Part shown: one piece after another, positions 12,761 to 27,881 of the stretch | Numbering within the stretch: the first letter of the stretch is position 1 | Layout of the letters: each line of letters starts with the position of its first letter | Source of the DNA: an uncultured Bdellovibrio sp. | GTDB taxonomy: Bacteria > Bdellovibrionota > Bdellovibrionia > Bdellovibrionales > Bdellovibrionaceae | Assembly: GCA_963932905.1 (NCBI GenBank) | Contig: CAWVRN010000013.1 | Span: 46,472 to 110,471, forward strand | Direction: 5' to 3' | DNA length: 64,000 bases | Notes under the pieces: model-generated | What the model was told of the DNA's origin: nothing | Database searches by the model: none | Seen by the model: the letters and a program-made list of their open reading frames with translations, nothing else | Translations under genes and position numbers: made by a program

Positions 12761-13136
12761 ACTCACAGACAAACATTCGGACGACTTAAACACCTTAAGC
12801 ATACGTTATGATAGCAATATTGCCAAATCGACGGTTTCCTATTTTCGAGGAAAAACGACGGGTCTAGTTTATCCCGCTAAAAGCTATTTCGTGGGAATTT
12901 GTTACGCCAAATGGATACAGCAAGACTTTGGAGATAGTTTTAAAGACAACCTAGACGATGCGGAGCTTTTATTCAAAAATGACCCTTACTTTAAACGGTA
13001 TTCAGAAGCAAAAGATGTTTATGACCAGATTCTTAGTATCGTTGGGCTTAACTTCGATGAATCGGTAGGTATTATTCCCGTGGTGCGACAATATTACCTA
13101 AATGAAATTCAACTCAAAGGATTTGATAATCCATAA
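12723..13136 (+). CDS. Hypothetical protein coupled to radical SAM gene
   Basis: Overlaps the 3' end of 11816..12760; YPAKSY, NDPYF; ATG 12723 likely start. Confidence 0.7.
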   Translation: MKKWKINQQIYHKLTDKHSDDLNTLSIRYDSNIAKSTVSYFRGKTTGLVYPAKSYFVGICYAKWIQQDFGDSFKDNLDDAELLFKNDPYFKRYSEAKDVYDQILSIVGLNFDESVGIIPVVRQYYLNEIQLKGFDNP

Positions 13137-13822: not shown

Positions 13823-14374
13823 GTGAGTATCACAATGATTACAAAAAAATATATTGGCGCCGGTGCCTATGAAGTTCAAGGTTTGGGTAATGAAATTCTT
13901 TTTCCCATTCAAAGCCTCATACCAGGGGATGAAATTAAATTCGAACGCGAAAACGATCGCCTAATTACGGCTGCAGTTAGCCACTTACCTAGCTTATTGG
14001 GACTTTTTATCTTAAATTCTGATTACGCGCAGACCAACGTTGACCATAATCAACTTACCCGAGCCTGGGCCTGGGAGTGGCATAGTGACTCGGTAAATAA
14101 CCCTCAAGTAGATTGTAAAGTAATACTCTACTTCGTCAGTGAGGACCTTACGGAAGAAACTGGAAATCGAATTTGCTTTAGAAAAAAAACAGAAAATAAT
14201 GAATACACTTACGATATAAAAAATAACTCATTGATCGTCCAACGTTCAGATCCACACGGAGTGTATCAACACAAAAGGGAACCAAGTCGAAAACCTATCA
14301 AAAGCAGAATTATTTTGTCAATGAATTGCCTGGGCTTCGATACTTTTTTAAAAAGTGTCCCCGATGCCATATAG
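13823..14374 (+). CDS. Putative 2OG-Fe(II) oxygenase
   Basis: WEWHSD (HxD), VILYF, TGNRI, YQHK, RIIL pattern. Confidence 0.62.
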   Translation: MSITMITKKYIGAGAYEVQGLGNEILFPIQSLIPGDEIKFERENDRLITAAVSHLPSLLGLFILNSDYAQTNVDHNQLTRAWAWEWHSDSVNNPQVDCKVILYFVSEDLTEETGNRICFRKKTENNEYTYDIKNNSLIVQRSDPHGVYQHKREPSRKPIKSRIILSMNCLGFDTFLKSVPDAI

Positions 14375-15255: not shown

Positions 15256-16175
15256 AAAAGCTATTTTTTGTATGTTTTTCGGTTGTTATAATGATACTTC
15301 TTATCTGGACATTAAGTCCAAACCCTAGCAATTTGGTTATAACGCAGCAACAGGTAAAGGAACTTTCACCTAACCAACCACCTCAGGTTGACCATGTCAG
15401 GTTTCACAATATTATCTTAACTGAGAAAAATGAGTGCGGGCAAACCCGAGAAAGCACTATTAGGGTATTTGATTTAGTATTTTTTGCTCCTCTGGAATTG
15501 ACTAGGGACAAATTGAGAATCATCGTCACAGAAGAGGTATCGGGCAACCAGCAAGAGATTTTTTTTGATGGAAACTCATTTTTGTATAAAAAATTAAATG
15601 CCAATTCCGATGTCCAAGACTTTGGAGTTCCTGAAAAATGCATAAGCCGCGATCCGTGTCCATTTTTTGTCAAAGTAAAACCCGAATATTGGAAAAATTT
15701 GAAAAGGGAAGTTCGGTTTTCCGTGAATATATTTAACTCAAACAACCAATCCGAACCTGCACTGGTAAAAAAATATGACACAGAAGAGAATCAATTTTTA
15801 ACTTCTTTTGCCGCCCCTCGAAACGAAATCAGTGTTTTGTCTTCATTTGATCCAAAGACAAAGACAGTTTACGCTTATTTACCTAAAACCCCCGTCATTG
15901 ACCAATTGAATAAAAGTACTGAGCTGTATTTGGTCATACAGACAAAGAACAAAGTAGAGCAAAATTTTCTAGATAAATTTGAGTTCGATGTAAACCTTTT
16001 TGGACTAGAAAAGCGCATACGTGGAGACAATTTTGAATACAAGACTAAGATAAATTCATCAGACCCTGCTTACCTCAATACAAGCTTTTATATGATTAGA
16101 AAAAACTTGTCCGAGGCCCACAGCGTAATTTCTATAAACAAATCTGATCCATTTTTCAATTGTTCACAACAGTAG
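15252..16175 (+). CDS. Membrane-anchored/secreted protein, paralog family B
   Basis: ATGA overlap with the upstream gene; N-terminal TM; KNECG, central Cys pair, terminal FFNC. Confidence 0.75.
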   Translation: MKKLFFVCFSVVIMILLIWTLSPNPSNLVITQQQVKELSPNQPPQVDHVRFHNIILTEKNECGQTRESTIRVFDLVFFAPLELTRDKLRIIVTEEVSGNQQEIFFDGNSFLYKKLNANSDVQDFGVPEKCISRDPCPFFVKVKPEYWKNLKREVRFSVNIFNSNNQSEPALVKKYDTEENQFLTSFAAPRNEISVLSSFDPKTKTVYAYLPKTPVIDQLNKSTELYLVIQTKNKVEQNFLDKFEFDVNLFGLEKRIRGDNFEYKTKINSSDPAYLNTSFYMIRKNLSEAHSVISINKSDPFFNCSQQ

Positions 16176-17196
16176 ATCGATCGATGTATGCAAAAGTTGC
16201 TTTAAACGGACAGTCCGCGGTGCTTGCGCGTTTTGTAAAGCTATGCTTTACAAAACAGCCCAAAGTGCATCGATTAAAATACTTACACTCTAGGCAATTG
16301 TATTTTTCCATAAAATTCATTTCCACAGCACTGTTGTCATTTGATTCAATTACGACGTCAAATAGCGGCGATACAGATTTGTTTTGTAAAATCAAATTAC
16401 CACATTTACATTCGGTTCCATCACCAAGTAAAAGTTTTGAACTACGACAAGACATCGTATTATAGGAATTTTCAATCCATTCCCTGATGGGATTTACTTT
16501 TGGAAAGTTATCTACAAGGTATTTAAAAAATACAACCAAATCATCATCATTTGGCATCATTAGCTGGTAATCATCTGCCGGAGAATAATAGTCAAAATAG
16601 ATATAAAAGTTTTTTTCGTACAAATATTCAAAATATCGATCGCCAGAGTTCAACATCAAACTTATAAGTGGCTTCGTAATAAGCATACTAATACAACTAA
16701 TTTCGTCGGAAAAAAATTCGACGTTGCTTTTAAAAAGTTCAAAATTGCTGTGACTAAAGCGCCCCCTCGGATCATAAGATGTGACCAGGTTATATGCGAT
16801 GTTATTCTTTTTAAGATCGGCGAAGAGAGCCCGTATTTGGCTCTGTCTATTATTTACTAAGTTTGAAACAAAATTGAAAACTACTTTTTTATTGTTCTTC
16901 CGAGTGAATCTATCGACTTCGTCGCAGAGGTAAAAATAGTCACTTTGCAAATTTTCGTCAAATAGGTCATCGGCAAAAATCTCGCCACCCATTATATTTA
17001 TTGTAAATTCAAACCGCTCGTCTTTATCCAGCATTGCGATTAACTGTGGTACTTTATTTCTAACTTCGGCTACCCCTTTTAACGCAGAATGATCTTGCCA
17101 ACAAAACTTACAGGCCAAGTTACACTTTTCAAATAGGTGCAAGGTGTACTCTTGATTGGGGCTTCGTTTGTTTTTCAAAACAAAATCGCTTATCAT
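16156..17196 (-). CDS. Radical SAM/SPASM-like protein
   Basis: CNLACKFC, MGGE, CLECKYFNRCTLGC (CxxCx5Cx3C), CP. Confidence 0.9.
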   Translation of the reverse strand: MISDFVLKNKRSPNQEYTLHLFEKCNLACKFCWQDHSALKGVAEVRNKVPQLIAMLDKDERFEFTINIMGGEIFADDLFDENLQSDYFYLCDEVDRFTRKNNKKVVFNFVSNLVNNRQSQIRALFADLKKNNIAYNLVTSYDPRGRFSHSNFELFKSNVEFFSDEISCISMLITKPLISLMLNSGDRYFEYLYEKNFYIYFDYYSPADDYQLMMPNDDDLVVFFKYLVDNFPKVNPIREWIENSYNTMSCRSSKLLLGDGTECKCGNLILQNKSVSPLFDVVIESNDNSAVEMNFMEKYNCLECKYFNRCTLGCFVKHSFTKRASTADCPFKATFAYIDRSTVVNN

Positions 17197-18239
17197 AGTC
17201 GAACCTCAGGTTGTCTCTTTTTTACAAGAACATTTCCGGCTTCTTTTTTATTTATTTCGATTACTTTTTTTGCTATCTCTTTCATTCCCGAACAGTGGCG
17301 TTCTATCGAGTCGTGTTGCTTCAGGTCGTGGATTGTTTTTTTACATCCGTTGCAAATATTAAACATCGGACATGTGTAACATTCAATTTTAAGTGCATTC
17401 AGTTCCGTCTGATTTAGAAGAGGTCGATGGACATTGACATCTGACATTTCCTGCTCAAAAGAAATGGGATAAAGTCGGTCATCCGCAAATGCCCCACAAC
17501 TATAGTAGTCACCGGATGGCTGCAAACATCGAATATTAGAATCGCAATTGCGATTCTGAGGGCACGTTTGATGACGTCCTGAAAATCTTTGCATCATCTG
17601 TTTAGTGTTGTATTCCCAGGGCCATAGTTCCATTTCATATATTTGCACATATATCTTATAGATTTTGGACAAAATATAGGGCTTTATTTGATCCCCGCTG
17701 GCCATCGCATAGTTCAGCTTACATTCGACACCCATCTGCTTAGCTAGTTCGACATTTTTAATTGCCGTGATATCGTTCTCATCGGTGATCACGGAAATGA
17801 AATCGGGTCGATAACCTACCTCATTTAAAAATAAGTCACTGACTCCCCAAAACATGGGTTCAGTATAAACTAAATCTTTTGTTATTCTGCGAGTGTCACC
17901 GAAATTAAAAGAGGTTGTAACTGAAACACGATGATTTTTAAATAACGGAGCCCACCTAGACGGACTATTTTTAAAAGCCCACAGATTTGAGGTAAAACTT
18001 ATTGAAGTCGACATTTTTTCCTGATCTAGAAATTCGATTATTTTCCAATAATAACCAGGATCTACCATCAGTGGATCTCCGCCATTAACAATTATGCTTC
18101 CCGTTTCTGGAAAACGTTTTAAAAAAGAAAATATCGTTTCTAAATCTAAGATTTTAGATTTTTCATCTGTAATATTTGTACTTGAGCAGAAAGTACATTT
18201 AAAATTGCATCGCTCAGTTGGTTTTATTATTAATTCCAT
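17193..18239 (-). CDS. Radical SAM/SPASM protein
   Basis: IKPTERCNFKCTFC, NGGDPL, TSNL, PSGDYYSCG, CYTCPMFNICNGC. Confidence 0.92.
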   Translation of the reverse strand: MELIIKPTERCNFKCTFCSSTNITDEKSKILDLETIFSFLKRFPETGSIIVNGGDPLMVDPGYYWKIIEFLDQEKMSTSISFTSNLWAFKNSPSRWAPLFKNHRVSVTTSFNFGDTRRITKDLVYTEPMFWGVSDLFLNEVGYRPDFISVITDENDITAIKNVELAKQMGVECKLNYAMASGDQIKPYILSKIYKIYVQIYEMELWPWEYNTKQMMQRFSGRHQTCPQNRNCDSNIRCLQPSGDYYSCGAFADDRLYPISFEQEMSDVNVHRPLLNQTELNALKIECYTCPMFNICNGCKKTIHDLKQHDSIERHCSGMKEIAKKVIEINKKEAGNVLVKKRQPEVRL

Positions 18240-19333
18240 CAGTAGTTAAAGTTTCCGTATTTGTAAAAGTTGTCATTTACCGTTTTAAATCCTGCCCTAG
18301 GAGCCAGACAATCTTTATAGTCTAGTTTTTCCATCAAATAATGCATTCCCCGCCCCACACAGTTTGAGGCGTATTCGCACCCAGCACATTCTGTGGTTTT
18401 TTCAATGTATTTCAATGAATCAACCATCATGCGATTCTCGAACTCTACAATTGTATTATAGTTCCATACGGTGTCAGCTCCCAAACCGGCATCGTCTTCA
18501 TACACAATTAAAGGCTCTCCCAAAAATACGGTAGAATATAAATTTCCATTTTTATAGACGTAATCTTTATCGTAGCCCTCATACCTTTTCCCGTAATTAA
18601 AGTTCACCTCTTGGCTCTTTTCTTCAATTACCGCTTTTTCAAACAGCAGATTAAGATACTTGATTAGGTGGAGAACCTTTTTTTTATTCTCAGGTATCGT
18701 CAGAGGCAATCTACCTTCCGATATGACCAAATCAAGATGACCTTCTGGCCAAATTTGGTTAAAATACTTCGAAAAATCATGAAATTGATAAAGTGGATCA
18801 TGCTCCTTCTGATATTCATGTAAATTTACTATGTTGTACACGTGACCAAACTCACAGTTTGGAATAATACTTTCGAAGAGTTTAATTTTTTCTTTGATAC
18901 CATTTAAATACTTTTCGTTCCTTAAGTGTTTGGGCTCTAACGGAACAGTCCATTTAACACGACGGCCAGATAAAATAGGCTTTAATTTATTCGCCCAGTA
19001 TCTAACGACTTCATGATCTGCTAAAAAGGTAGAATTTAATACCAGGTTACGAAAATAATCCATCATAGGAATAATGTCTTTATTAAGAATTTCATCGGTA
19101 TTGCGAGCACTCATAAAATCCGTGGCGCCAACAGCCAAATTTATCAAGACATGATTGTTATCCTTAAGATCCTGAAACAAATCCATAAGTCGTCTGAAAT
19201 CATTTCCAATAAATCCGTTAGCGTCGTCTTTGTTGATACGACATCCTGTACACTTCCACTTACAACCGCTCAAAACCTCTAAATTTATATCAACTAAAAA
19301 GTGGGATTGGTAATTAGCCAAGATTTCCTCCAA
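18239..19333 (-). CDS. Divergent radical SAM protein
   Basis: GCKWKCTGC (CxxxCxxC); GGE region reads VGATDF; C-terminal CAGCEYASNC...C. Confidence 0.78.
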   Translation of the reverse strand: MEEILANYQSHFLVDINLEVLSGCKWKCTGCRINKDDANGFIGNDFRRLMDLFQDLKDNNHVLINLAVGATDFMSARNTDEILNKDIIPMMDYFRNLVLNSTFLADHEVVRYWANKLKPILSGRRVKWTVPLEPKHLRNEKYLNGIKEKIKLFESIIPNCEFGHVYNIVNLHEYQKEHDPLYQFHDFSKYFNQIWPEGHLDLVISEGRLPLTIPENKKKVLHLIKYLNLLFEKAVIEEKSQEVNFNYGKRYEGYDKDYVYKNGNLYSTVFLGEPLIVYEDDAGLGADTVWNYNTIVEFENRMMVDSLKYIEKTTECAGCEYASNCVGRGMHYLMEKLDYKDCLAPRAGFKTVNDNFYKYGNFNY

Positions 19334-20384
19334 ACGCTCGATTAACTCGCGCTGAATGATAAAATTTTAATTCTTCCGGATTTTTAAAAAAAGTCGTCGT
19401 CGCAAAATCTATAAAATAGTTGTTCAAAGTTAGACCAAATTTAGATTGCCCTATGAAATTTCTAATTCGGCTATTTAAATCTAAATCTAAAATAGCGTCT
19501 ATAGAAATATCGAAATTTAACTTTAACCATTCAAAGGCAACGTCCAAAAGTGGATTCGGCAAGTACTGTCTTACCTTCGACAACTCCCGCTGAATATCTT
19601 TGATATCATAGTGAGACTCTAAAAAATTATTTCGATTGACCGCCACCTGTCCATCCATCATAAACTTTAAAAAATTTTCGCTGTAACGTTCTGCATGTTT
19701 AGTCATCTCGTCTATGAAAGAGTAACTGGACAGCAGTTCAGCTCGCAAATCTAAAAGTAATAAAACTTGTGTTTCTTGAAGATCTTTCGTCAGTTGCTTC
19801 TTTGTTCCTTCCGGGAGTGGCATTTTTGCAGAGATATAATCAACATAGGCATTCTCAAAAGGCAGAATATGCCAATAGTCAAACCGATCTCCGAAAATAC
19901 CTCTGTTGGATTTTTTTATTGTTTTAGGCCGCGATGCCTGAACAAATTTATCTATTTTATGAGCCAAATCCTTAGTCAGATTCCCGGCTGCCGTTCGGCT
20001 CCTTAGCAGTCTATATTCATATCTATCTAGTACCATTTGAAATAAAAAGTTGGCCCGAGACTGATCGATATCCGGCATCATGCTAAACACCCAGTCACTG
20101 TATACAGCTATAAAATTCTCTACATCACAGTAGATGATCGTTTGACCTTCAGATTTAATCAAATTACTCCAAAATACACTTAATCCATCAGAGTTTGAAC
20201 TAACAAAATCAATATAAGAATCTTGGCTGTAAACGACGTTACCAAAGATTAGTCCTGTTAAATTCTTTTCCTCTTCTGAAAAAACACTCCAGCGATTCCC
20301 CGCCTCACCAAAAAACACCAAGTTTTGACTGTTTCGTATATCAAAATCAGGAGCCAGAAAAACGTTACCGACTAAGTTAATCAT
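19314..20384 (-). CDS. Hypothetical protein, unknown paralog family A
   Basis: MINLVGNVFL start, IIYCD, HYDIKDI, LNNYF. Confidence 0.72.
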   Translation of the reverse strand: MINLVGNVFLAPDFDIRNSQNLVFFGEAGNRWSVFSEEEKNLTGLIFGNVVYSQDSYIDFVSSNSDGLSVFWSNLIKSEGQTIIYCDVENFIAVYSDWVFSMMPDIDQSRANFLFQMVLDRYEYRLLRSRTAAGNLTKDLAHKIDKFVQASRPKTIKKSNRGIFGDRFDYWHILPFENAYVDYISAKMPLPEGTKKQLTKDLQETQVLLLLDLRAELLSSYSFIDEMTKHAERYSENFLKFMMDGQVAVNRNNFLESHYDIKDIQRELSKVRQYLPNPLLDVAFEWLKLNFDISIDAILDLDLNSRIRNFIGQSKFGLTLNNYFIDFATTTFFKNPEELKFYHSARVNRAFGGNLG

Positions 20385-21459
20385 TCAGCGCCAACTCTGT
20401 TAATTCAAAGCCGATATTTTGCAACTCGGTAGCGGCGTTTTCCATTAAAAACAATAAATATGGATTCAAGTACTCGCGAACTCTTAACGATTTTAGAATT
20501 TTAGCTGAAGCTACTTTTTCTTTACTTTTGGTTAGAATTTCTAAAGTAAAAAATGGAGATGATCGATCAAGAAACACATTTTGAAAAATTGGCGCATATT
20601 CATTGTACTGCAATTCCAAGGCTTGCAGATGGATTTTACTGTTATCAAATTCAAATAGCAGCTTATAAATTTCAGGGGCGAGCCTTGCAAGTTCATTACG
20701 TCGATTTTTCGACCAAGAAATCTGATCGATTCCAATCATTTTCTCAATTCTATAATAAGAATCTATCAAAGGCAGCACAACGTCCTCTTCAAATTCTGTC
20801 AGACTTCCTACATTCAAAGTATTGAGTGTATTCAAAAGCATACCTTGCGAAGGTTTAAAATCACCATTTGTATAGTAATTTACAAAAAACAAATCTAAAT
20901 TAACTTGATCATACAGTTGCGTCTTGATCTTCTGATTTATTCTCCAAGCAAATGTATTTTCCCATATGAGTTTAATAAAACCAGCCGAAACGACCTGATG
21001 AATTTGATCGTGCAATTGTCCGCTAAAACTATGGACAGATATTGACGATTGATTGCCGGCGTTTCCATCAATAAACTTTATCTTTTTTAAAAAAATGTTG
21101 ATCAAAAAATCAAATGCTTCAAATCCCATGTTAGGCAAAATTGTCTTAAACAATTTTGCTTTTAAATAAACCATATTTTCAATATCGCTGAAAATAAAAA
21201 GCAAATTGGGTTCTGAAGATTCAATCATCCATTCAACAAACGCGCTGTCGTCATTTTTGAATTTTTCTTCGACAAACGACCACAGCTGAGAACAACCAAA
21301 TCGCTGCTTCGAATTGTCTAATTTTAGACCGTTTAAGCCTCTGGAAGGGTCAAATCCACGTGCATAGGATTCGTATTCTTTAAAAATTCCTAAATGATTC
21401 GCGTTTACATCGAATTCAACAAAATTTTTTAAAAACACCTTACCAAACAATTGATACAT
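20377..21459 (-). CDS. Hypothetical protein, unknown paralog family A
   Basis: MYQLFGKVFL start, FIFSD, LNPYLL. Confidence 0.72.
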   Translation of the reverse strand: MYQLFGKVFLKNFVEFDVNANHLGIFKEYESYARGFDPSRGLNGLKLDNSKQRFGCSQLWSFVEEKFKNDDSAFVEWMIESSEPNLLFIFSDIENMVYLKAKLFKTILPNMGFEAFDFLINIFLKKIKFIDGNAGNQSSISVHSFSGQLHDQIHQVVSAGFIKLIWENTFAWRINQKIKTQLYDQVNLDLFFVNYYTNGDFKPSQGMLLNTLNTLNVGSLTEFEEDVVLPLIDSYYRIEKMIGIDQISWSKNRRNELARLAPEIYKLLFEFDNSKIHLQALELQYNEYAPIFQNVFLDRSSPFFTLEILTKSKEKVASAKILKSLRVREYLNPYLLFLMENAATELQNIGFELTELALND

Positions 21460-21462
21460 AAA

Positions 21463-22239
21463 TTAGCTGACCGTAATGCGATCAAGCTCTTTACCTACCA
21501 GGTCTATTTGCTGTTCAGTGAACGCCTTTTTCAAAACTGCGCCTACGACAGCGTAGAGTTCGGGGCTTGATTGCATGGTTTCAGCAAACAAATTTTTTCC
21601 GTTATAAAAAAACTCTTCAAATTGAGGTTTAAAATAAAAAGCGGTCGTAGTTGAAAAAGTTCCGAAATAATTTATATAAAACATAGGCATTTTCAATAAA
21701 TTCACGAAAGTAAAACCGGTGAATTCCATATCGTCAACAACGGAAAAATGAGCTTCCGGAGGTGAACCTAAATCTCGAAATTCTTTGGAGCAGGTGTATA
21801 TAAAGGTAGGAATACTATCAAGAAGCACGATAAGCCGAAGCATATTATTCATTCGATCTGCGTCTTCCAAATAGTCCCGAACTCGCTCTCTAGAGATTAA
21901 TGAGTAGGTGTCTAAAATCTGTTGTTCCGCTTCAGACAACTCGATCCCTTTAATTTCAGCCAGAATTCGAACAATCGAAAATTTTATATTCACCAAATCT
22001 ATTGTCGATTTAAACGTGACATAGCTATCAATTAAAGAGAAAAAATCATCTTCAATACTATTTGATTTTTCAAAATAAACATTCGCCACATTAATGTTGC
22101 TTAAATAAATCAACAGAGCGCGGTCTTTGATTTGACATGCTTTATAATCACCAATGACTTTTAAATCAGGATTGGCGATAACTAATTTCAAGTCATCCAT
22201 ACTAAGCGGAAACTTAGTTCGTAATTCCATTGTACTCAT
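21463..22239 (-). CDS. Hypothetical protein translationally coupled to the CHxx-repeat protein
   Basis: 258-aa ORF; ATGA overlap with the stop of 22236..22883. Confidence 0.75.
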   Translation of the reverse strand: MSTMELRTKFPLSMDDLKLVIANPDLKVIGDYKACQIKDRALLIYLSNINVANVYFEKSNSIEDDFFSLIDSYVTFKSTIDLVNIKFSIVRILAEIKGIELSEAEQQILDTYSLISRERVRDYLEDADRMNNMLRLIVLLDSIPTFIYTCSKEFRDLGSPPEAHFSVVDDMEFTGFTFVNLLKMPMFYINYFGTFSTTTAFYFKPQFEEFFYNGKNLFAETMQSSPELYAVVGAVLKKAFTEQQIDLVGKELDRITVS

Positions 22240-22883
22240 CGGCGCCCCCTAGCGCCATGACAGCTGCCATGGCACGAAGAATGGCACCACGTCTCTACAA
22301 AAACTATCGGATTAGCGGCTCTATCATTTGCTAAATGCAAAGCTAGAGCATCGATGAAAGCAATAATCGGTTGAGATTCCACCCACGAACCAACCCCAGG
22401 AAAAGCAGGCCCGATCCCGGCATAATTGACGACATCGAAATTCAAATGAATTTGCCCGGCCATAGGCCCATATTGATTAACCATAGTTCCAAAGTTATTA
22501 TAATTTTTTTGAATTGTATAATTGCGATAACGACTAAGCGTTGAGAATACAGTTCTAATAAAACCCGCCACACTGGCTACCGAAACTCGCTGAGCCACAT
22601 CAACGCCAGCAGCCTGAATTTCCGCGCTCGTCACCGCAGTGCGAACGGTTTGACCTGCGCCTAACTGACTAGATCCATCTCCCGTCGCCACACCATTTCT
22701 AGTTGTGCTGCTATAACTACCAGAAATGGGCCTATTGTTTACAAAAGGATTGTTATTAGGATCACCGCCGGGACTTCCGCTGTGAGTTTTGCTTGCTGCA
22801 TTTATAGCCGCCACAGTTATATTAAGTTGATCGCGAATTTGATCTCTAAATACCGCATCAATTCTGGTTCCCCGAGCCCCCAC
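22236..22883 (-). CDS. Fibre-like protein with C-terminal (CHxx)3 motif; putative radical SAM substrate
   Basis: AGGAGA RBS + GTG; G/A/S/T/N/V-rich body; all three Cys are in the terminal WCHSSCHGSCHGARGRR. Confidence 0.8.
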   Translation of the reverse strand: MGARGTRIDAVFRDQIRDQLNITVAAINAASKTHSGSPGGDPNNNPFVNNRPISGSYSSTTRNGVATGDGSSQLGAGQTVRTAVTSAEIQAAGVDVAQRVSVASVAGFIRTVFSTLSRYRNYTIQKNYNNFGTMVNQYGPMAGQIHLNFDVVNYAGIGPAFPGVGSWVESQPIIAFIDALALHLANDRAANPIVFVETWCHSSCHGSCHGARGRR

Positions 22884-22892
22884 GCCAGTCTC

Positions 22893-24050
22893 CTATTCTT
22901 TGCCTACAAATTTATTCAGCATTTTTCTATATAGGTTGATATCATTTTTTTCTTTTAATTCTTGCATTAACGTCTTGGGCGAGGCACACAGATCCCCCTG
23001 CCACGCTAATTGATGACAATCGCCATTACATACATCAAATACGTCACAGGAATAACATATCGGATTTCTTTGAACCTCACACAATATATTTTTCGAACGT
23101 CCCGGCGACGACAATAACTCAGGAATAGGCATAGATAGATGAGCATATGGCTGAGTTGCGGCTGAATTCGGACACCCACCAATGCTGCCGTCCGCGTTCA
23201 AAGTGAAAATTTTTTGTTCACAACCCCGACATCTACACCCCGTATGGGCTCGATTAACCAAACTAGTTAAAATTGAATTAAAAAACAAATTTGTAAATTT
23301 TGTATAAGACTCTAGCTTTACCGTTGCCCGCCAAAGTTTCAAAAACCAATCGTCCAATTCTTTATTTGTTGGAATGACACCCTGATTAACAAGCGCATTA
23401 CCATTTGGGGTAATTCTTTCTAGATGCAAATACTGAACACCCAAGTCAGCAAACCATTTTAAAAAATCTTCGACATCCATTTGGATAACATCTTTGGACA
23501 AACTGATCATAACAGTGACTTCGTGGCCATCCTGAAGAAGCGTATTAACATTTTTTCGCCAAAGAGTCTCTTGATGTTCTGACTGAAAACGAATGCCTCT
23601 ATCCCAAGAGGTCGCAATACCTTGGGAAAATGCCGTTTTCATAAACTGTCGTTTTTCATCATCAAGGTTATAAACCAAATTCGTGGTAGCCGACCACCAA
23701 ACGTTTGGCCACAAATTGCGACAGCTATTCCATACTTTATACATAGAAGAAATTGGTGCCAAAAATGGCTCTCCTCCATGAAAGGCCACATGACCATTTT
23801 TCAAGTGTGGAACAACTTGGTGAAATCTATGAAACCAATCAACCACAGCATCTGGGTCAAAAAAAATCTTTTTTCCGTTTTTGCCACTAGTGAAACAATG
23901 CGAACAGTTTAGCTGGCAGGTTTCCGTTGTCTTTAGATAGACCATCAAATCAGAGACCCTTAAAAACGAAGACAGGTTAAGGCCACGCTTAATTTGCGGA
24001 TCAACAGAACGGTCATTAAAACTTGAGGACGTATCTTTTAATTCTATCAT
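22893..24050 (-). CDS. Radical SAM/SPASM maturase
   Basis: KTTETCQLNCSHC, FHGGEP, TTNL, CRCRGC...NADGSIGGCP, CYSCDVFDVCNGDC...C. Confidence 0.93.
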   Translation of the reverse strand: MIELKDTSSSFNDRSVDPQIKRGLNLSSFLRVSDLMVYLKTTETCQLNCSHCFTSGKNGKKIFFDPDAVVDWFHRFHQVVPHLKNGHVAFHGGEPFLAPISSMYKVWNSCRNLWPNVWWSATTNLVYNLDDEKRQFMKTAFSQGIATSWDRGIRFQSEHQETLWRKNVNTLLQDGHEVTVMISLSKDVIQMDVEDFLKWFADLGVQYLHLERITPNGNALVNQGVIPTNKELDDWFLKLWRATVKLESYTKFTNLFFNSILTSLVNRAHTGCRCRGCEQKIFTLNADGSIGGCPNSAATQPYAHLSMPIPELLSSPGRSKNILCEVQRNPICYSCDVFDVCNGDCHQLAWQGDLCASPKTLMQELKEKNDINLYRKMLNKFVGKE

Positions 24051-24138: not shown

Positions 24139-25143
24139 TTAGTTAGCATTTAATCGGCCTTCCAGAAGATTTATTTTTTTTATCAACTCTTGCCGTTTAA
24201 TATAAACTTGCTTGTGATACTCCCATAGTACCGGAATGACTGCTGAATAATTTAATGTAGAAATGCCAGTGGGATTTGACACGCCCGCATAGGGTAAATC
24301 CTTTAGAATCTCTTGAGCAATAAAGCCTAGATGCTGTCCTTTATAGTTTTTGAGCTTGTACCTGTAACCATGAATGGATTCAAAGGTCTGGCCACTGACC
24401 GCGATTTTTTTGATGTCAGTTTTCAGAGACACGTCGGAAGCATTACCTAGGTGATTCACCCGCAAATTAGGTGCTGTGGCTGCCGGAAAAGCTTCATCAA
24501 CCAGGACTTCTCCACCGATTTCCACATTGCCTTCGAAGGTTATGTCTCCTTGTTTAGTTTCAGCTCCATTTATGCGAATAAAGGAATTGCTTAGTACCAT
24601 CGCGGTCGCACTACCACATGTTGTTACCCTGCCTAAGCCATCGATCGTGCCCTCAAGAGGTATATGCAGAGTCATTTGTCTGACTCCCTGGCCCTTATTG
24701 TATCCATACGTGACAGCGATATTAAACGTGACATTTGGCGCCGCAACAATAAGATCGGACACCTGCGCACCTATTACGTCCACCGTTCCGTTATTCAAGT
24801 CATTTAATGGAAAGGTCAACACCACACCATTAGCACCATCACGGATAGTGGGAATATTTTGACCGTTAGCAAGAGCGCCCGCTGTCGCGTTAAACGTATT
24901 CAAACAACCCGTTTGTTGATTAAAAAGACTGTCCATATTTAAATGCAAGGGCGCTATAAATCTTTCCGATCTAATTAACTGAAGCTCTTCCATAGTTGAA
25001 ATGTAGAGCTGAGTTGTAGAAAAAATAATTCCGGCCAAAAGAGCAACACCCACAAGCAGTTCTGTGAGCGAAATACCTCGCTGATTTCCAACAAATTTAA
25101 TTTTCAATTTATTTAACTTTAACCCAGTGGCGGCCATTAACAT
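24139..25143 (-). CDS. Prepilin-type N-terminus fused to S74 tail-fibre chaperone
   Basis: QRG|ISLTELLVGVALLA; C-terminal SDVSLKTDI, GFIAQEI, LNY, coiled coil; true start may be TTG 25107. Confidence 0.85.
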   Translation of the reverse strand: MLMAATGLKLNKLKIKFVGNQRGISLTELLVGVALLAGIIFSTTQLYISTMEELQLIRSERFIAPLHLNMDSLFNQQTGCLNTFNATAGALANGQNIPTIRDGANGVVLTFPLNDLNNGTVDVIGAQVSDLIVAAPNVTFNIAVTYGYNKGQGVRQMTLHIPLEGTIDGLGRVTTCGSATAMVLSNSFIRINGAETKQGDITFEGNVEIGGEVLVDEAFPAATAPNLRVNHLGNASDVSLKTDIKKIAVSGQTFESIHGYRYKLKNYKGQHLGFIAQEILKDLPYAGVSNPTGISTLNYSAVIPVLWEYHKQVYIKRQELIKKINLLEGRLNAN

Positions 25144-25720
25144 CTACCTTCTTTTTTTCCGTTCCAAATATCGTATCGAATTCGGGTTTTTTATAAATAG
25201 CCAATAAGCGCTCAGGAAATTTTAACTTTTCTTCAGTCGTCATTTCACTCAAAATGCCCTCTTCATTGTTTGTCAGCGGTGTACCTGGCTCATATGTATT
25301 GTCTACATAGGCCAACACCCAACCACTGACAGCGATTGGCACCTGCCGCTGACTCGGATAACGCCCTTGCCCGACAGCAAATCCAAAAGTATCCGAAGCA
25401 ATTCCTATCGCACTTTTTTGACATCGTTGATTGCATATTTTGGCGCCGTCAAATGTGTCATAATAACATTTTCCAAACACGATTTCATCACATACCAGCT
25501 GAAAATCTGCTATATCATTCCAGACAGCTCCCCAAACTTTTTCAGCGGCAAACTCTCCAGAAGCAGCACCACCAAGCGCTGTAGTGACAACTAAATCCAC
25601 TCCCCCAGCAGCCACAGTTACGACTCCAGAGCCATCAATGTTACAGGTTTTAATAGTGGCCGCGGATTGAGCTTGCTGACCTATGAAAAGAGTGTGTATC
25701 AGTTGGGAAAGTTTTTGCAT
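25109..25720 (-). CDS. Short fibre segment plus autocleaving tail-spike chaperone-like (Peptidase G2-like) domain
   Basis: AEKVWGAVWNDIADF (cf. the DYAE motif), GIASDTFGF, VPIAVSGWV, GTPL, terminal RHWVKVK. Confidence 0.65.
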   Translation of the reverse strand: MQKLSQLIHTLFIGQQAQSAATIKTCNIDGSGVVTVAAGGVDLVVTTALGGAASGEFAAEKVWGAVWNDIADFQLVCDEIVFGKCYYDTFDGAKICNQRCQKSAIGIASDTFGFAVGQGRYPSQRQVPIAVSGWVLAYVDNTYEPGTPLTNNEEGILSEMTTEEKLKFPERLLAIYKKPEFDTIFGTEKKKVDVNGRHWVKVK

Positions 25721-25729
25721 GCTGATCTC

Positions 25730-26770
25730 CTAGTTACTTTTAATCCTTAGTTTGGTTTCTATTTTGTCTAATCGTTTTTCTAACTTCCTATTTTCCTTTG
25801 ACATATTTTTATAAGACTCATGAAGAATAGGTACAAATCCCGAATAATTGACCGTCTTTTTACCATCAGTTTTTCGAGCAGAAACAAGCTGAGGCAGAAC
25901 TTTTTCAACATCCTGAGCAATGAAGCCATAGTCTCGCCGTCCATCTTGTTTCCATGAAAACTCTTTCCCTTCAATTAAAGAAAAAACTTCATCGAAATTT
26001 ACTAAAAGAGGTTTGATGTCCGATTTAAAACGCCTATCCGACAAAGTGTAAACTCCACCATAGGATCGTATCGATCCAGACTGTGCTGGATTTCCACCAC
26101 CACCAGCCCAAGCAACCACGTTCATATTTCCTTCTATTGTCAAACTACCCTGCTTGGCTGTGCTATCATAACGATCACGCTGCACATAAGCGTTCGGATC
26201 ATATCCAAAACCTGCCGATGTCCCCGCAGTACAACGATGGTAAGTATTCTGATCTAGAGCATTGTAATCTGGTACCAAGCGCTGACCTACTGCCGTCGGC
26301 ACCGTAGTTCTAATTGTAATCACTCGATCCATGTTTCGAGTCGTCCCGCCTGTTCCGATTGGCACGCGATAGCGAATATTTAAGTCAAAACTACCGGTGT
26401 AGGGCAATGGCGCACCCGCGGCCGGATTCTGCAGAAAATTAGTCGCACGCATCCGAGTAATCGAAATGTTTTGATAGTAAGGCCCACCAGCAGTCGCATA
26501 CAGTACCGTGTTAAATGAGTTTCTTATGCTCGCAATATTTGTAAACAGTGCCGCACGATTAATCCCGGTAAAGGTATTGTAGCATCCATTAGGGTTGGTT
26601 AGGGCCAACAATATGTGAGCATGAAGTTCTTCAACATTTAAAGTTAACCGAGTTTCCAAGAAATGCTTCTGAGTCGCCATTAGTAATGCTGAAATTAGCA
26701 AAGTCACTAAGGCAAGCCCACCGACATATACAACAAACTCTATCAAGGTAAACCCACGCCTATTCATCAC
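25730..26770 (-). CDS. Prepilin-type N-terminus fused to S74 tail-fibre chaperone
   Basis: RRG|FTLIEFVV; SDRRFKSDI, FSWK, YGFIAQDVEKVLPQLV, VNY, coiled coil. Confidence 0.9.
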   Translation of the reverse strand: MMNRRGFTLIEFVVYVGGLALVTLLISALLMATQKHFLETRLTLNVEELHAHILLALTNPNGCYNTFTGINRAALFTNIASIRNSFNTVLYATAGGPYYQNISITRMRATNFLQNPAAGAPLPYTGSFDLNIRYRVPIGTGGTTRNMDRVITIRTTVPTAVGQRLVPDYNALDQNTYHRCTAGTSAGFGYDPNAYVQRDRYDSTAKQGSLTIEGNMNVVAWAGGGGNPAQSGSIRSYGGVYTLSDRRFKSDIKPLLVNFDEVFSLIEGKEFSWKQDGRRDYGFIAQDVEKVLPQLVSARKTDGKKTVNYSGFVPILHESYKNMSKENRKLEKRLDKIETKLRIKSN

Positions 26771-27881
26771 GTCCTCCGCTGGTCTTACCAGTGACAGGAC
26801 CCAGTTTTCGGTCAGCTAAAGATTCGAGCTGCTGAATTTTTCTTTCTAACTTAATATTTTGCTGATCGATTGATTTAGTGGCCTCAAGTAAGATTGGCAA
26901 TAGGGCCTGATAATCAACACGTTTAATTCCGGTGCCTTCATCAGACGAAACCACTTCTGGAAAAATAGATTCAACTTCCTGGGCGACAAAACCAATGTCT
27001 TTACGCTGTCCCTCTTTCCATTGAAATGAGTAGCCATTCAACGTCATTAGGTCTTTTGGTTTAATCACTAAAGGCTGCATATTTTGCTTAAGTTTTTTAT
27101 CGGATATTGTAAAAACCCCACCCTGGACGCCTAAATCACCACCGACACTTAGGTTTCCTCCGGTCATTCTAAATACAAATCCTTGAGGTTCGTCAGCAGT
27201 GTTTCCCCTTGCATCTGTAGTCATTTTAGATTTGGTGTCAATTCCTGTCTTAGAAAGATAATTGGCAGGATTAAAGCCAAACGAGGTGCCGTTTTCGGGA
27301 GCAGCATGACATCGCTCGGGCTGCTTCACAACTGCGCTTCCTGCGGCCCAGGTGTTGGCCGGATTCGTTTCCGTTCGAACAATAAATCGACGAACTTTAC
27401 TTATTGTCGAAGACGGCGAAACACGAACAAGATAATTTACTGTGACCCGAAAAAATCCTGTGAAAGGAGCCGGAACACCACCGCCAGCAGTAAATGTATC
27501 CGCAGTCATCGACGTAATCTGAATACTTCTATTGTAGAATGTATTAAGCACATAAACAGGGACTGGTACCGCAGGAGCTTGTGCGCCACTCATAATTTGA
27601 TTAAAAGCAACCTGTCCTGGAGCAATAACCATCCCGCTAAACGTATTGAAACAAGCATGCCTGTTCGACAAAGTAAAAACAATTTGAGCATGTAAATCGT
27701 CCACAAGAATATTACCACGAGTCTCGAAAAAAAAAGCTCGCGTAGATAAAATCGAATTGTTAATCGCTACGGAAACCACACCAAGAATTACCAAAGTAAT
27801 CAAAATTTGAATAATGGAAAAACCCTTTGAATTGGATCTTTCAATAACTTTAAGAAGAATAAATTTAGACTTTTGTTTCAT
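26760..27881 (-). CDS. Prepilin-type N-terminus (Gln5) fused to S74 tail-fibre chaperone
   Basis: SKG|FSIIQILITLVILG; SDKKLKQNM, FQWK, IGFVAQEVESIFPEVV, VDY, coiled coil. Confidence 0.9.
   Translation of the reverse strand: MKQKSKFILLKVIERSNSKGFSIIQILITLVILGVVSVAINNSILSTRAFFFETRGNILVDDLHAQIVFTLSNRHACFNTFSGMVIAPGQVAFNQIMSGAQAPAVPVPVYVLNTFYNRSIQITSMTADTFTAGGGVPAPFTGFFRVTVNYLVRVSPSSTISKVRRFIVRTETNPANTWAAGSAVVKQPERCHAAPENGTSFGFNPANYLSKTGIDTKSKMTTDARGNTADEPQGFVFRMTGGNLSVGGDLGVQGGVFTISDKKLKQNMQPLVIKPKDLMTLNGYSFQWKEGQRKDIGFVAQEVESIFPEVVSSDEGTGIKRVDYQALLPILLEATKSIDQQNIKLERKIQQLESLADRKLGPVTGKTSGGRDE

What the first reader, a model, noticed from the sequence alone, without database searches (positions are those of the whole stretch)
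22236..22883. 215-aa protein ending in WCHSSCHGSCHGARGRR, the likely modification target
Seen: the only three Cys in the protein form a 4-residue periodic repeat (22239-22286) followed by RGRR and the stop. The gene sits 9 nt after an rSAM/SPASM gene. The body is rich in small residues like a structural fibre protein, has no signal peptide and is far longer than typical RiPP precursors. Known: CxxxC spacing occurs in thioether-crosslinked RiPPs; His-Xaa-Ser (HxsA) systems use 3-residue repeats with paired rSAMs; CxxxCH is also a rare haem-attachment variant. Inference: Cys/His/Ser crosslinking, methylation or hydroxylation builds a metal-binding or adhesive tip.
Basis: partly seen in the sequence, partly recalled or inferred. 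Interest (0 to 1): 0.9.

Follow-up and report, generated by a model that had tools for sequence, protein, structure and literature searches.

The report
Radical-SAM kit for Cys-His-tailed fibre protein
A predatory-type bacterium carries, right behind three pilus/phage-fibre hybrid genes, a small folded protein whose almost unchangeable Cys-His repeat tail is always encoded with a set of radical-SAM enzymes that probably rebuild that tail chemically, a kit otherwise found in the tail-fibre modules of large phages and described in no paper I could find.

Summary
In detail: a 215-aa ORF (22236-22883, minus strand) starts 9 nt after a radical SAM/SPASM gene. Its only three Cys lie in the terminal CHSSCHGSCHGARGRR.

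The tail is a family signature. About 60 distinct tails from over 100 homologs keep (C-H-small-S/N)x3, mostly followed by RxRR, always at the exact C-terminus. Synonymous codons vary freely at the invariant residues.

The family is mostly phage-borne, in the tail-fibre and baseplate modules of T4-like and jumbo phages. One member, Atu_ph07 gp170, is a published virion protein that peaks in the top gel band.

The protein always sits inside a kit of 3-6 SPASM radical SAM enzymes, with or without a B12-rSAM, JmjC/2OG oxygenases and an unknown 258-aa partner. Enzyme sets co-vary with tail type: rSAM346 and rSAM314 occur in 38 of 38 loci with RxRR tails and 0 of 8 without.

Here the kit is chromosomal, not a prophage, and packed with three pilin-leader/S74 fibre genes. 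It occurs in 17 of 401 genomes of the phylum.

Best reading (0.6): the tail is the enzymes' substrate on a fibre-associated structural protein. The chemistry is unshown.

The closest published analogue is the HXS system, but membership tests fail. Earlier reports of this scan found the phage versions; the pilin-fibre context is new.

The parts
22236..22883 (-). Target protein (TGT), 215 aa, unnamed family (tail matches PHROG 35144)
   Evidence: ORF. Homologs. AF2 model. PHROG match to the tail only, E 2.8e-4.
22239..22286 (-). Invariant tail CHSSCHGSCHGARGRR: (C-H-small-S/N)x3 plus RxRR, predicted flexible
   Evidence: Conservation. pLDDT of 59 and 52 in the last two 10-residue blocks.
22893..24050 (-). 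rSAM-A (385 aa), radical SAM/SPASM, CxxxCxxC at residues 45-52, C-terminal CX2CX5CX3C
   Evidence: Pfam and NCBIfam. PHROG 1802 at 9.9e-62. Ortholog directly upstream of the target in 72 of 81 loci. Profile matches CteB, anSME and ChlB in the PDB.
21463..22239 (-). u258, unknown 258-aa partner, start overlaps the target's stop by 4 nt
   Evidence: PHROG 20767 at 8.2e-26. Found in 47 of 81 loci and 11 of 11 bacterial loci. AF2 pLDDT 87.4 with no clear fold match.
20377..21459 (-). u360, unknown protein; its N-terminus resembles that of u356 by eye
   Evidence: No family found. Ortholog in L002.
19314..20384 (-). u356, unknown protein, weak similarity to the phage cl11 gene that follows u258
   Evidence: tblastn hits to L002, L005 and L081.
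18239..19333 (-). r364, radical-SAM-like protein (CKWKCTGC), PHROG 31457
   Evidence: Present in 4-5 copies in group III phages.
17193..18239 (-). rSAM-C (348 aa), radical SAM/SPASM
   Evidence: Pfam Radical_SAM 6.9e-8. PHROG 1802 at 3.6e-53. About 60% identical to phage orthologs. Tree.
16156..17196 (-). rSAM346, radical SAM/SPASM; co-occurs with RxRR-ended tails
   Evidence: PHROG 1802 at 2.3e-39. Present in 38 of 38 loci with RxRR and 0 of 8 without.
24139..25143 (-). Fibre protein: pilin-like leader (G|ISLTE) plus Peptidase_S74 chaperone domain
25109..25720 (-). u203, unknown protein between the fibre genes
   Evidence: No family, and no homolog in the 81 loci.
25730..26770 (-). Fibre protein: pilin leader (G|FTLIE) plus Peptidase_S74
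   Evidence: Pfam S74 at 4.5e-13; N_methyl at 0.0091, below its cut-off. Tail-fibre PHROGs.
26760..27881 (-). Fibre protein: pilin-like leader (G|FSIIQ) plus Peptidase_S74
13823..14374 (+). oxy183, weak 2OG-Fe(II)/DSBH protein; its ortholog sits directly upstream of rSAM-A in L002
13202..13810 (+). 2OG-Fe(II) oxygenase (Oxy202) with phage orthologs in the kit
12723..13109 (+). cl13 homolog (PHROG 20737 family, unknown); co-occurs with RxRR tails
   Evidence: tblastn 40% identity over 133 aa. Present in 33 of 38 loci with RxRR and 0 of 8 without.
11816..12760 (+). rSAM314, radical SAM; co-occurs with RxRR tails
11070..11687 (-). 2OG-Fe(II) oxygenase (Oxy205)
6223..8100 (-). B12-binding radical SAM (625 aa), in the kit of some phages
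   Evidence: Present in 8 of 8 group II and 9 of 32 group I loci.

Best explanation
The ORF encodes a compact, folded 23-kDa protein of an unnamed family. The family belongs mainly to the tail-fibre and baseplate modules of large phages. Its body varies freely. Its last 13-17 residues are a flexible, almost invariant tail: three C-H-(small)-(S/N) units, usually followed by R-x-R-R.

I propose that this tail is the substrate of the radical SAM/SPASM enzymes encoded around it: rSAM-A directly upstream, then r364, rSAM-C and rSAM346 downstream. rSAM314, a B12-rSAM and Fe(II) oxygenases lie a few kb away. These would act in the cytoplasm before the protein joins a fibre-type appendage.

The most likely chemistry is radical cross-linking centred on His. 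H-x-S/N is a three-residue motif of the kind that triceptide synthases and the HXS system act on. Thioether formation or another conversion of the Cys may occur as well. The RxRR end would be handled by rSAM346, rSAM314 and cl13.

The product would be a rigid, cross-linked, basic or metal-binding end on a structural protein.

In this bacterium the kit is chromosomal and sits in one tightly packed gene row with three proteins that join a type IV pilin leader to a phage-fibre S74 chaperone domain. The modified protein therefore probably serves that appendage.

Shown: the family, its conservation, its gene neighbourhood, the co-variation of enzymes with tail type, and virion presence of one member. 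Inferred: that the tail is modified, which enzyme acts on which residue, the chemistry, and the link to the fibres.
For: 1. Tail conservation.
- C200, H201, C204, H205 and H209 are invariant in 33 of 33 members that are otherwise 19-50% identical.
- 89 of 89 tail-bearing ORFs in 81 loci end exactly at the tail.
- In 53 distinct three-unit tails, positions 4, 8 and 12 are S or N in 51, 50 and 42 respectively.
- Synonymous codons are used evenly at the invariant residues.

2. Neighbourhood.
- By tblastn over 81 loci: rSAM-A in 72, rSAM-C in 55, rSAM346 in 55, u258 in 47. Many of these loci are truncated.
- In 46 IMG/VR loci with at least 9 kb downstream, rSAM-A and rSAM-C are present in 40 of 40 loci of groups I and II.
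- In 11 of 11 further bacterial loci the same genes are kept although order and orientation are shuffled.

3. Co-variation of tail and enzymes.
- rSAM346 and rSAM314: 38 of 38 loci with RxRR tails, 0 of 8 loci with tails ending CHGS(L/I).
- cl13: 33 of 38 against 0 of 8.
- Group III (two small tandem targets) has no rSAM-A, rSAM-C or u258 (0 of 6) but carries 4-5 r364-type enzymes (6 of 6).

4. Enzyme type.
- The rSAM-A profile's best PDB matches include the peptide- or protein-modifying SPASM enzymes CteB, anSME and ChlB.
- Best NCBIfam rows are the peptide maturases DarE, CbpB, DynA and PapB.
- The accessory oxygenases are of protein-hydroxylase types: JmjC_2 at 1.8e-9, and a weak Asp_Arg_Hydrox match at 4.6e-4, below its cut-off.

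5. Precedents.
- HxsA, a 214-aa protein with HxS repeats, is matured by rSAM enzymes with a +8 Da change on SHRSS (PMC13128918, section 9 read).
- His-C2 to X3-C-beta cyclophanes are made by HtkB, HaaB and YhhB (PMC11499958, passages).

6. Structural role.
- Atu_ph07 gp170 ends CHSSCHASCHNSRSRR and has a computed mass of 31.894 kDa.
- It appears in the virion ESI-MS/MS table as Gp170: 31.89 kDa, 8 unique peptides, 35% coverage, bands 1-9, most abundant in band 1.
- Other ~30 kDa proteins in the part of the table I read peak in bands 7-8.
- The kit's enzymes gp165, 168, 169 and 171 are not listed there (PMC6102473, supplement part 3).

7. Phage context. The kit lies between baseplate-wedge, giant structural and tail-fibre genes and fibre-assembly genes.

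8. Arrangement in the window. Twelve genes from 27881 to 16156 lie on one strand, with gaps or overlaps of at most 35 nt apart from one 88-nt gap.
Against: - No modified residue has been observed in any member. The Atu_ph07 proteome covers 35% of gp170, and I could not see whether the C-terminal peptide was found.
- rSAM-A has no RiPP recognition (RRE) domain ahead of its cluster motif; only about 45 residues precede it.
- None of the enzymes reaches a curated cut-off for any characterised maturase family. The chemistry therefore rests on analogy.
- A Cys/His-rich end could simply bind metal.
- The tail-enzyme co-variation rests on three lineages, which are not independent samples.
- In a bacterium the protein has no signal peptide, so how it would reach a surface fibre is unexplained.
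- The band-1 peak of gp170 could reflect an SDS-stable oligomer or smearing rather than covalent links. Many proteins in that table spread over many bands.
- The link to the pilin-S74 genes is adjacency only. S74 fibre genes were found beside the kit in 4 of 11 other bacterial loci and in 8 viral loci.
Confidence: 0.6

Rival explanations
1. The tail is an unmodified metal site (Zn, Fe, Ni or Cu) at the end of an oligomeric structural protein. The neighbouring radical SAM enzymes act on something else, such as the fibres, the giant structural protein, DNA or a small molecule.
For: - Cys and His are classical metal ligands.
- The tail is predicted to be unstructured on its own, as metal-dependent ends often are.
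- From recall, not from a call: trimeric phage fibres and spikes carry His-coordinated iron or zinc (T4 gp37, gp12, P2 gpV).
- The protein is in virions.
- No modification has been seen.
Against: - This does not explain why 3-6 rSAM genes are kept with the protein even where gene order is scrambled.
- It does not explain why enzyme sets switch with tail type.
- S/N at the +2 position of each His is as conserved as the ligands, which a plain metal site does not need.
- The third Cys is lost in 7 of 33 members while H-S-S is kept.
Confidence: 0.17
2. The protein is a scaffold. Its tail is modified and then cut off to release a small cofactor or natural product, in the way PQQ, mycofactocin or pearlin pathways use a carrier peptide.
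For: - The end is invariant on a freely varying body.
- Many tailoring enzymes are present: rSAM, B12-rSAM and oxygenases.
- The modified region is at the C-terminus, as in mycofactocin (recalled).
Against: - No protease or exporter is conserved in the kit.
- The kit sits in virion structural modules.
- A member is a virion protein with 35% peptide coverage.
- Some members carry inserted domains that match tail-fibre and head-decoration families (P0006 residues 226-340), which fits a displayed structural protein.
Confidence: 0.1
3. In the bacterium the kit is an HXS-like anti-phage defence. The matured basic Cys-His tail would block phage DNA entry, as matured HxsA is proposed to do.
For: - The logic is the same as in HXS: a ~200-aa protein with H-x-S repeats and basic residues, plus several rSAM enzymes and a small or unknown partner.
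- The island has lower GC than its flanks, 34-37% against 40-43%.
- Occurrence in the phylum is sporadic: 17 of 401 genomes.
Against: - Most members are encoded by phages inside structural modules.
- NCBIfam and Pfam detect no peptidoglycan-binding domain, and there is no signal peptide.
- HxsB and HxsC scores are far below cut-off: 19.8 against 370 and 33.8 against 267.9 bits.
- PADLOC gives only rSAM-core matches to viperins.
Confidence: 0.06
4. The overlapping CxxxCH motifs are variant c-type haem attachment sites.
For: C200-x3-C204-H205 and C204-x3-C208-H209 fit CxxxCH.
Against: - There is no signal peptide, and no cytochrome c maturation genes are nearby.
- Most members are phage proteins assembled in the cytoplasm.
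- 7 of 33 members keep only one such motif.
Confidence: 0.02

Closest known systems
HXS anti-phage system (HxsA matured by the rSAM enzymes HxsB and HxsC with HxsD; Li et al., Nat Commun 2026, PMC13128918; abstract and section 9 read)
   Same: - The substrate is a folded protein of about 200 aa, not a short peptide.
- It carries tandem His-x-Ser units and basic residues.
- Several radical SAM enzymes and a small or unknown partner are encoded beside it.
- In HXS a covalent change maps to a His/Ser motif.
   Different: - Here a Cys precedes every His, so the period is 4 rather than 3.
- There are three units at the extreme C-terminus, followed by RxRR.
- There is no signal peptide and no peptidoglycan-binding domain.
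- The kit has 4-6 rSAM genes and none is an HxsB or HxsC ortholog.
- The family is mostly phage-encoded within structural modules, and one member is a virion protein.
Triceptides: three-residue cyclophane RiPPs made by rSAM/SPASM synthases, including His-C2 to X3-C-beta links by HaaB (HAA), YhhB (HNR) and HtkB (HTK) (PMC11499958, passages read)
   Same: - H-(small)-(S/N) fits the aromatic-X2-X3 motif, repeated three times.
- The enzymes are SPASM-type rSAMs.
   Different: - Scores against YhhB, XyeB, FxsB, GrrM and AmcB models are 16-24 bits against cut-offs of 310-450.
- The substrate is a folded protein, without a leader-core layout.
- The invariant Cys residues have no counterpart in triceptide motifs.
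PHROG 35144 (Ralstonia phage RSF1 gp071) and Agrobacterium phage Atu_ph07 gp170, both annotated hypothetical
   Same: They are true family members with the same tail and the same flanking rSAM genes. gp170 is in the virion proteome.
   Different: They are phage genes. The window's copy is chromosomal in a Bdellovibrionota genome, only 15-21% identical in fold-search alignments, and sits beside pilin-leader/S74 fibre genes.
His- or Cys-coordinated metal sites at the tips of trimeric phage fibres and spikes (T4 gp37 and gp12, P2 gpV; recalled, no call)
   Same: A Cys/His-rich terminal segment on a phage tail-module protein.
   Different: Those sites are HxH motifs inside a beta-helix and need no dedicated enzymes. 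Here the motif is a flexible tail kept together with rSAM enzymes.

Membership tests
HXS system (TIGR03976-03979) | Substrate is HxsA (TIGR03979 family) | tested here: not met
   No NCBIfam hit for the 215-aa protein at E <= 0.01.
HXS system (TIGR03976-03979) | Paired rSAM maturases HxsB and HxsC | tested here: not met
   Best scores come from rSAM-C: HxsC 33.8 bits (cut-off 267.9) and HxsB 19.8 bits (cut-off 370). rSAM-A scores 15.2 bits against HxsC.
HXS system (TIGR03976-03979) | Small partner HxsD | tested here: not met
   None of 17 neighbouring proteins hits an HxsD model at E <= 0.01.
HXS system (TIGR03976-03979) | Tandem His-Xaa-Ser repeats in the substrate | tested here: inconclusive
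   The tail reads H-S-S, H-G-S, H-G-A at a period of 4 with a Cys before each His. Across 53 distinct tails the +2 residue is S or N in 51, 50 and 42. The units are similar but the spacing and context differ.
HXS system (TIGR03976-03979) | N-terminal processing, export and a peptidoglycan-binding domain | tested here: not met
   The N-terminus is hydrophilic. No Pfam domain was found.
Triceptides (3-residue cyclophane RiPPs) | Aromatic(His)-X2-X3 motif in the core | tested here: met
   Three H-x-(S/N/A) units are present. His as the aromatic residue is documented for HaaB, YhhB and HtkB.
Triceptides (3-residue cyclophane RiPPs) | Maturase belongs to a 3-CyFE family (YhhB, XyeB, FxsB, GrrM/OscB, AmcB) | tested here: not met
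   Scores are 16.1-23.9 bits against cut-offs of 310-450. ChlB appears in the PDB profile search only over the rSAM core, E 2.2e-6, positions 7-97.
Triceptides (3-residue cyclophane RiPPs) | A -2 Da C-C cross-link per motif | not testable with these tools
   This needs mass spectrometry and NMR of co-expressed protein.
CXXX-repeat peptide system (TIGR04115 maturase) | Maturase of the TIGR04115 family | tested here: not met
   rSAM-A scores 18.1 bits against a cut-off of 350, over residues 39-97 only.
Sactipeptide/ranthipeptide maturases (PapB family NF047865) | Maturase reaches the family cut-off | tested here: not met
   rSAM-A scores 34.4 bits and rSAM346 24.9 bits against a cut-off of 340.
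c-type cytochrome (variant CxxxCH site) | Export signal and periplasmic haem attachment | tested here: not met
   No signal peptide by inspection. No ccm genes among 46 ORFs scanned. Haem content is not testable here.
PHROG 35144 (unknown function) | Match to the family profile | tested here: inconclusive
   The window protein matches only profile positions 167-186 (the tail), E 2.8e-4. 22 of 33 family members match, mostly over the C-terminal part. RSF1 gp071 matches full length at 4.7e-129.

The most novel reading that the evidence does not exclude
Predatory Bdellovibrionota may have taken over a phage tail-fibre finishing kit to build their own appendage. Pilin-anchored, phage-type (S74) fibres would carry or be capped by the Cys-His-tailed protein. 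Its tail would be forged by radical SAM enzymes into covalent, possibly inter-protein, cross-links or a metal-holding knot. This would be a radical-chemistry 'rivet' shared by phage tails and a bacterial prey-contact organelle. The top-band migration of the 32-kDa Atu_ph07 homolog would then reflect covalent attachment to a large partner.
Probability: 0.15. Interest if true: 0.9.

Novelty: new variant of a known kind. Interest (0 to 1): 0.72.

Why it matters
Radical SAM maturation is known for short RiPP peptides and, since 2026, for one defence protein (HxsA). A kit of four to nine such enzymes built around a virus-particle protein would be a new class of post-translational chemistry on phage tails.

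The kit is conserved from T4-like and jumbo phages to the chromosomes of predatory bacteria. The enzymes there would be acting on a folded protein substrate, which is of interest for biocatalysis.

The bacterial copy matters for two reasons. First, it shows the kit working outside a virion, next to pilin/phage-fibre hybrids. That ties it to surface appendages in general. Second, it offers a compact 12-gene row for heterologous reconstitution.

Tried and rejected
- Complex prediction (rSAM-A alignment A3 with target alignment A2): 'no answer', score 0.01 against a mark of 0.32, controls not run. This is no evidence either way.
- Sequencing runs: 17 DNA holders and no RNA holder listed, so nothing can be said on expression.
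It was not repeated.
- tblastn of family member P0025 against INPHARED phages found nothing. Phage isolates were reached through rSAM-A instead.
- Fold searches for the target. Foldseek against the PDB gave no match at E <= 0.001. BFVD returned only uncharacterised phage proteins, including Atu_ph07 gp170. VIA-align against 48,161 chains gave a best Z of 5.4 (a designed protein). Z 3.0-4.1 matches to baseplate or TssK-type chains are within the noise range stated by the tool.
- ESM Atlas for the target: no usable hit.
- Fold searches for u258. Foldseek found none. VIA-align gave a best Z of 4.1. Weak rows to the rSAM enzymes ChlB and anSME (Z 3.6 and 3.2) are too low to use.
- Promoter and terminator scan of 15600-28400: counts at or below the shuffled expectation, 32 against 36 and 13 against 10.3. 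It gives no support for or against an operon beyond gene packing.
- Prophage idea rejected. None of 46 ORFs between 308 and 51933 matched a capsid, portal, terminase or integrase family. The flanks are SecA, FabH-like and AcrB-type genes. In a quick tree the bacterial rSAM-C sequences lie on the opposite side of a 96% SH-aLRT branch from 42 phage rows.
- Literature. Searches found no paper that describes this protein family or assigns a role to the phage rSAM cluster. Jumbo-phage genome papers only list the enzymes (passages). The 2021 jumbo-phage review has no occurrence of 'radical SAM'.
- Not seen: supplements other than Atu_ph07 Data_Sheet_1, and the RSL2/RSF1 virion proteome paper, which is not in the library. 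Either may bear on virion presence.
Full report
**Observation.**
- The minus-strand ORF 22236..22883 encodes 215 aa from a GTG preceded by AGGAG. It ends WCHSSCHGSCHGARGRR.
- It begins 9 nt after the stop of a radical SAM/SPASM gene (22893..24050). Its stop overlaps the start of the next gene by 4 nt.
- The three Cys are the only ones in the protein. Small residues (G, A, S, T, N) make up 45.6% of it, the N-terminus is hydrophilic, and pI is 9.45.
- In the organism's own 4.55-Mb genome, CH..CH..C?H occurs once among 5,510 stop-to-stop frames of at least 100 aa, and that is this ORF.
AlphaFold2 on a 33-row alignment gives a compact alpha/beta fold (mean pLDDT 85.4, pTM 0.83), and only the last ~15 residues are at low confidence.

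**The family.**
- The word-indexed search of 5.8 billion proteins found four relatives.
- The exhaustive HMMER search of 1.84 billion representatives found 34 hits at E <= 0.001. I dropped two of them (P0008 and P0013, long repeat proteins without the tail).
- In the alignment of 33 members, which are 19-50% identical to the query, the invariant columns are C200, H201, C204, H205 and H209. R120, R212, R214 and R215 are nearly invariant.
- Seven of 33 members lack the third Cys but keep H-S-S. Three of 33 end CHGS(L/I) without the basic end.
- A scan of IMG/VR gave 379 pattern matches, of which 138 encode relatives; the best 80 loci were kept. One further genome record, a Bdellovibrionaceae MAG (L002), came from genome contigs.
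- In these 81 loci, 89 tail-bearing ORFs all stop right after the tail. Eight loci have two tandem copies.
- Over 60 distinct tails the unit is C-H-(S/G/A/T)-(S/N).
- Synonymous codons are used about equally at each invariant Cys and His in 104 tails. Selection therefore acts on the protein.

**What surrounds it.**
- The window's three SPASM enzymes match PHROG 1802 at 1e-61, 4e-53 and 2e-39. The 258-aa downstream gene matches PHROG 20767, and the 364-aa rSAM-like gene matches PHROG 31457.
- By tblastn over the 81 loci, many of them truncated, rSAM-A is present in 72, rSAM-C in 55, rSAM346 in 55, u258 in 47 and r364 in 17.
- The usual phage order runs as follows:
  1. baseplate wedge
  2. giant PHROG-358 protein
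  3. 77-aa virion protein
  4. tail-fibre-like protein
  5. JmjC/cupin protein
  6. rSAM-A
  7. target
  8. u258
  9. unknown 370-aa protein
  10. rSAM346
  11. B12-rSAM (in some)
  12. rSAM-C
  13. 2OG oxygenases
  14. rSAM314
  15. cl13
  16. a fibre-assembly-type protein
- Cultured phages with the kit are jumbo phages of Agrobacterium, Sinorhizobium, Ralstonia, Burkholderia and Pseudomonas: 15 records, 12 different phages.
- In Atu_ph07 and RSF1 the gene after rSAM-A ends CHSSCHASCHNSRSRR and CHSSCHSSCHGSRGRR respectively.

**Co-variation.** Among 46 IMG/VR loci with at least 9 kb downstream of the target, three types appear.

| Group | Loci | Target and tail | Present | Absent |
|---|---|---|---|---|
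| I | 32 | single target, RxRR end | rSAM-A, rSAM-C, rSAM346 and rSAM314 in 32 of 32; JmjC/cupin in 29; cl13 in 27 | |
| II | 8 | tail ends CHGS(L/I) | rSAM-A, rSAM-C and B12-rSAM in 8 of 8; three group-specific unknown proteins | rSAM346, rSAM314, cl13 and the JmjC protein, each 0 of 8 |
| III | 6 | two small tandem targets, RGRR end | four or five r364-type enzymes; rSAM346, rSAM314 and cl13 in 6 of 6 | rSAM-A, rSAM-C and u258, each 0 of 6 |

- The RxRR end therefore travels with rSAM346, rSAM314 and cl13 (38 of 38 loci against 0 of 8 for the two enzymes).
- The Cys-His units travel with either the rSAM-A/rSAM-C pair or the r364 set.
- These are three lineages, not 46 independent events. Even so, the pattern is what one expects if the enzymes work on the tail.

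**A member is a virion protein.**
- The Atu_ph07 paper's supplementary Table S5 lists Gp170: hypothetical, 31.89 kDa, 8 unique peptides, 35.16% coverage. It was found in gel bands 1-9 and was most abundant in band 1 (PMC6102473, supplement part 3).
- The translated gp170 has a computed mass of 31.894 kDa. The paper's CDS 180 has the same length as RefSeq gp180. The numbering therefore agrees.
- In the part of the table I read (gp57 to gp707), other proteins of about 30 kDa peak in bands 7-8.
- The kit's enzymes and u258 (gp165, 168, 169, 171) are not listed.
- So the target, but not its enzymes, ends up in particles, and it migrates far above its size. That could mean covalent links or an SDS-stable assembly.

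**The bacterial setting.**
- The window is chromosomal. Its flanks encode SecA, fatty-acid enzymes, sensor kinases and an AcrB-type pump. No capsid, portal, terminase or integrase family was found among 46 ORFs scanned.
- The island from about 6 to 22 kb has 34-37% GC, against 40-43% in the flanks.
- It also holds a B12-rSAM, rSAM314, a cl13 homolog and three DSBH-type oxygenases, two clear 2OG enzymes and one weak match, most with phage orthologs.
- Twelve genes from 27881 to 16156 lie on one strand, with overlaps or gaps of at most 35 nt apart from one 88-nt gap before rSAM-A.
- The first four of these are three proteins with a type IV pilin-like leader (G|FTLIE, G|ISLTE, G|FSIIQ) and a C-terminal Peptidase_S74 chaperone domain, plus one unknown protein.
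- In the phylum, 17 of 401 sampled genomes have the target. This count includes the window's own genome and one doubtful hit at E 7.5e-4.
- In 11 further bacterial loci: rSAM-A, u258 and rSAM346 are present in 11 of 11; rSAM-C and rSAM314 in 9 of 11 within the 20 kb fetched; the tail was found by my pattern in 10 of 11. Order and orientation are shuffled.
- S74 fibre genes lie nearby in 4 of these 11 loci. Three of them have clear pilin leaders (GFS[I/L]xE).
- A quick maximum-likelihood tree of rSAM-C used 54 distinct rows. Identical rows and hits under 300 aa or under 40% identity were dropped. It puts 42 phage rows on one side of a 96% SH-aLRT branch, with the 11 bacterial rows plus one 'viral' contig (L049) on the other side. 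The window pairs with L002 (98%).
- The tree is unrooted and the careful search did not finish. I claim only that the bacterial copies are an old, separate lineage rather than a recent prophage.

**Mechanism.**
- The enzymes are SPASM-type. The rSAM-A profile matches CteB, anSME and ChlB among solved structures. Its best NCBIfam rows are peptide maturases, all far below their cut-offs.
- The accessory JmjC_2 and (weakly matched, below cut-off) Asp/Asn-hydroxylase-like proteins are of protein-modifying types.
- Two published precedents fit the tail. His-C2 to X3-C-beta cyclophanes form on H-x-x motifs (PMC11499958). The HXS system has a 214-aa protein with five HxS repeats that receives a +8 Da change on SHRSS from HxsB, HxsC and HxsD (PMC13128918).
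- I therefore think the most likely event is radical cross-linking around each His, with the S/N two residues on. The Cys may be converted as well or may serve as ligands. The chemistry is inference only.

**Rivals.**
- A plain metal site (0.17).
- A scaffold whose tail is released as a small molecule (0.10).
- An HXS-like defence role in the bacterium (0.06).
- Haem attachment (0.02).

**Relation to earlier reports of this scan.**
- I reached the reading above through and only then looked up earlier notes.
- At least nine earlier reports describe the same kit in phage windows. They name the HXS system or triceptides as the closest known systems, and one mentions copies in Bdellovibrio-type chromosomes.
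- These are AI notes and not independent evidence. They pointed me to the HXS paper, which I then read.
- Some of them also report a related Sec-exported Cys/His/Tyr-tailed family next to type IV pilus genes on megaplasmids. I did not test that.
- What this window adds is the chromosomal bacterial version, its count in the phylum, its separate lineage, and its direct linkage to pilin-leader/S74 fibre genes.

**Verdict.** The finding is real and unusual. The protein is very probably the substrate of its neighbours and part of a fibre-type structure. Neither the modification nor the location has been observed.

Noticed in passing
window 24139-25143, 25730-26770, 26760-27881 (minus strand); also L097:129-1421, and L100 and L105 (ORFs printed): Proteins that join a type IV pilin-like leader (G|FTLIE, G|ISLTE, G|FSIIQ; GFS[I/L]xE in the relatives) to a phage tail-fibre Peptidase_S74 intramolecular chaperone domain. 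This fusion recurs next to the kit in other Bdellovibrionota genomes. I found no description of it in the searches I ran.
   Followed up: partly
window 14326-15255 (+) and 29420-30262 (-); possibly also 15222-16175 and 31450-32382: Paralogous unknown proteins with hydrophobic N-termini flank the island on both sides in opposite orientation. They match no Pfam, NCBIfam or PHROG family.
   Followed up: no
window 6001-22000 and 28001-32000: GC content is 34-37% here, against 40-43% in the flanks and 41-42% over the target, rSAM-A and fibre genes. The island looks composite or acquired.
   Followed up: no
window 6223-8100 (minus strand): The B12-binding radical SAM protein matches the PADLOC candidate-defence model PDC-M51A at 3.5e-18. 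This may only reflect general B12-rSAM similarity.
   Followed up: no
L039, L040, L044, L045, L060, L061, L071, L078 (about 9.8-10.7 kb in most of these loci; 3.1-3.9 kb in L039): A phage lineage with two tandem small targets (128-144 aa, tails CHxSCHxSCHTSRGRR) directly after collagen-like tail-fibre genes. It has four or five r364-type rSAM genes and no rSAM-A, rSAM-C or u258.
   Followed up: partly
L049 (IMG/VR contig): Its rSAM-C groups with the bacterial sequences, not with the 42 phage rows, on a long branch. It could be a misbinned bacterial fragment or a phage of these bacteria.
   Followed up: no
P0006 residues 226-340; P0020 (413 aa); P0028 (257 aa): Some family members carry large insertions in the body. 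The insert in P0006 matches domains shared by tail-fibre, head-decoration and virion structural PHROGs at up to 6.7e-30. This fits a surface-displayed protein.
   Followed up: partly
Atu_ph07 Gp170, supplementary Table S5 of PMC6102473: The 31.9-kDa homolog is most abundant in the top gel band and spreads over bands 1-9 after heating at 95 C in SDS. This is unlike other proteins of about 30 kDa in the part of the table I read.
   Followed up: partly
PMC2853527 (Campylobacter phages CP220 and CPt10): These T4-like phages are reported to carry 11-12 radical SAM genes of unknown role. I did not check whether they hold a Cys-His-tailed protein.
   Followed up: no
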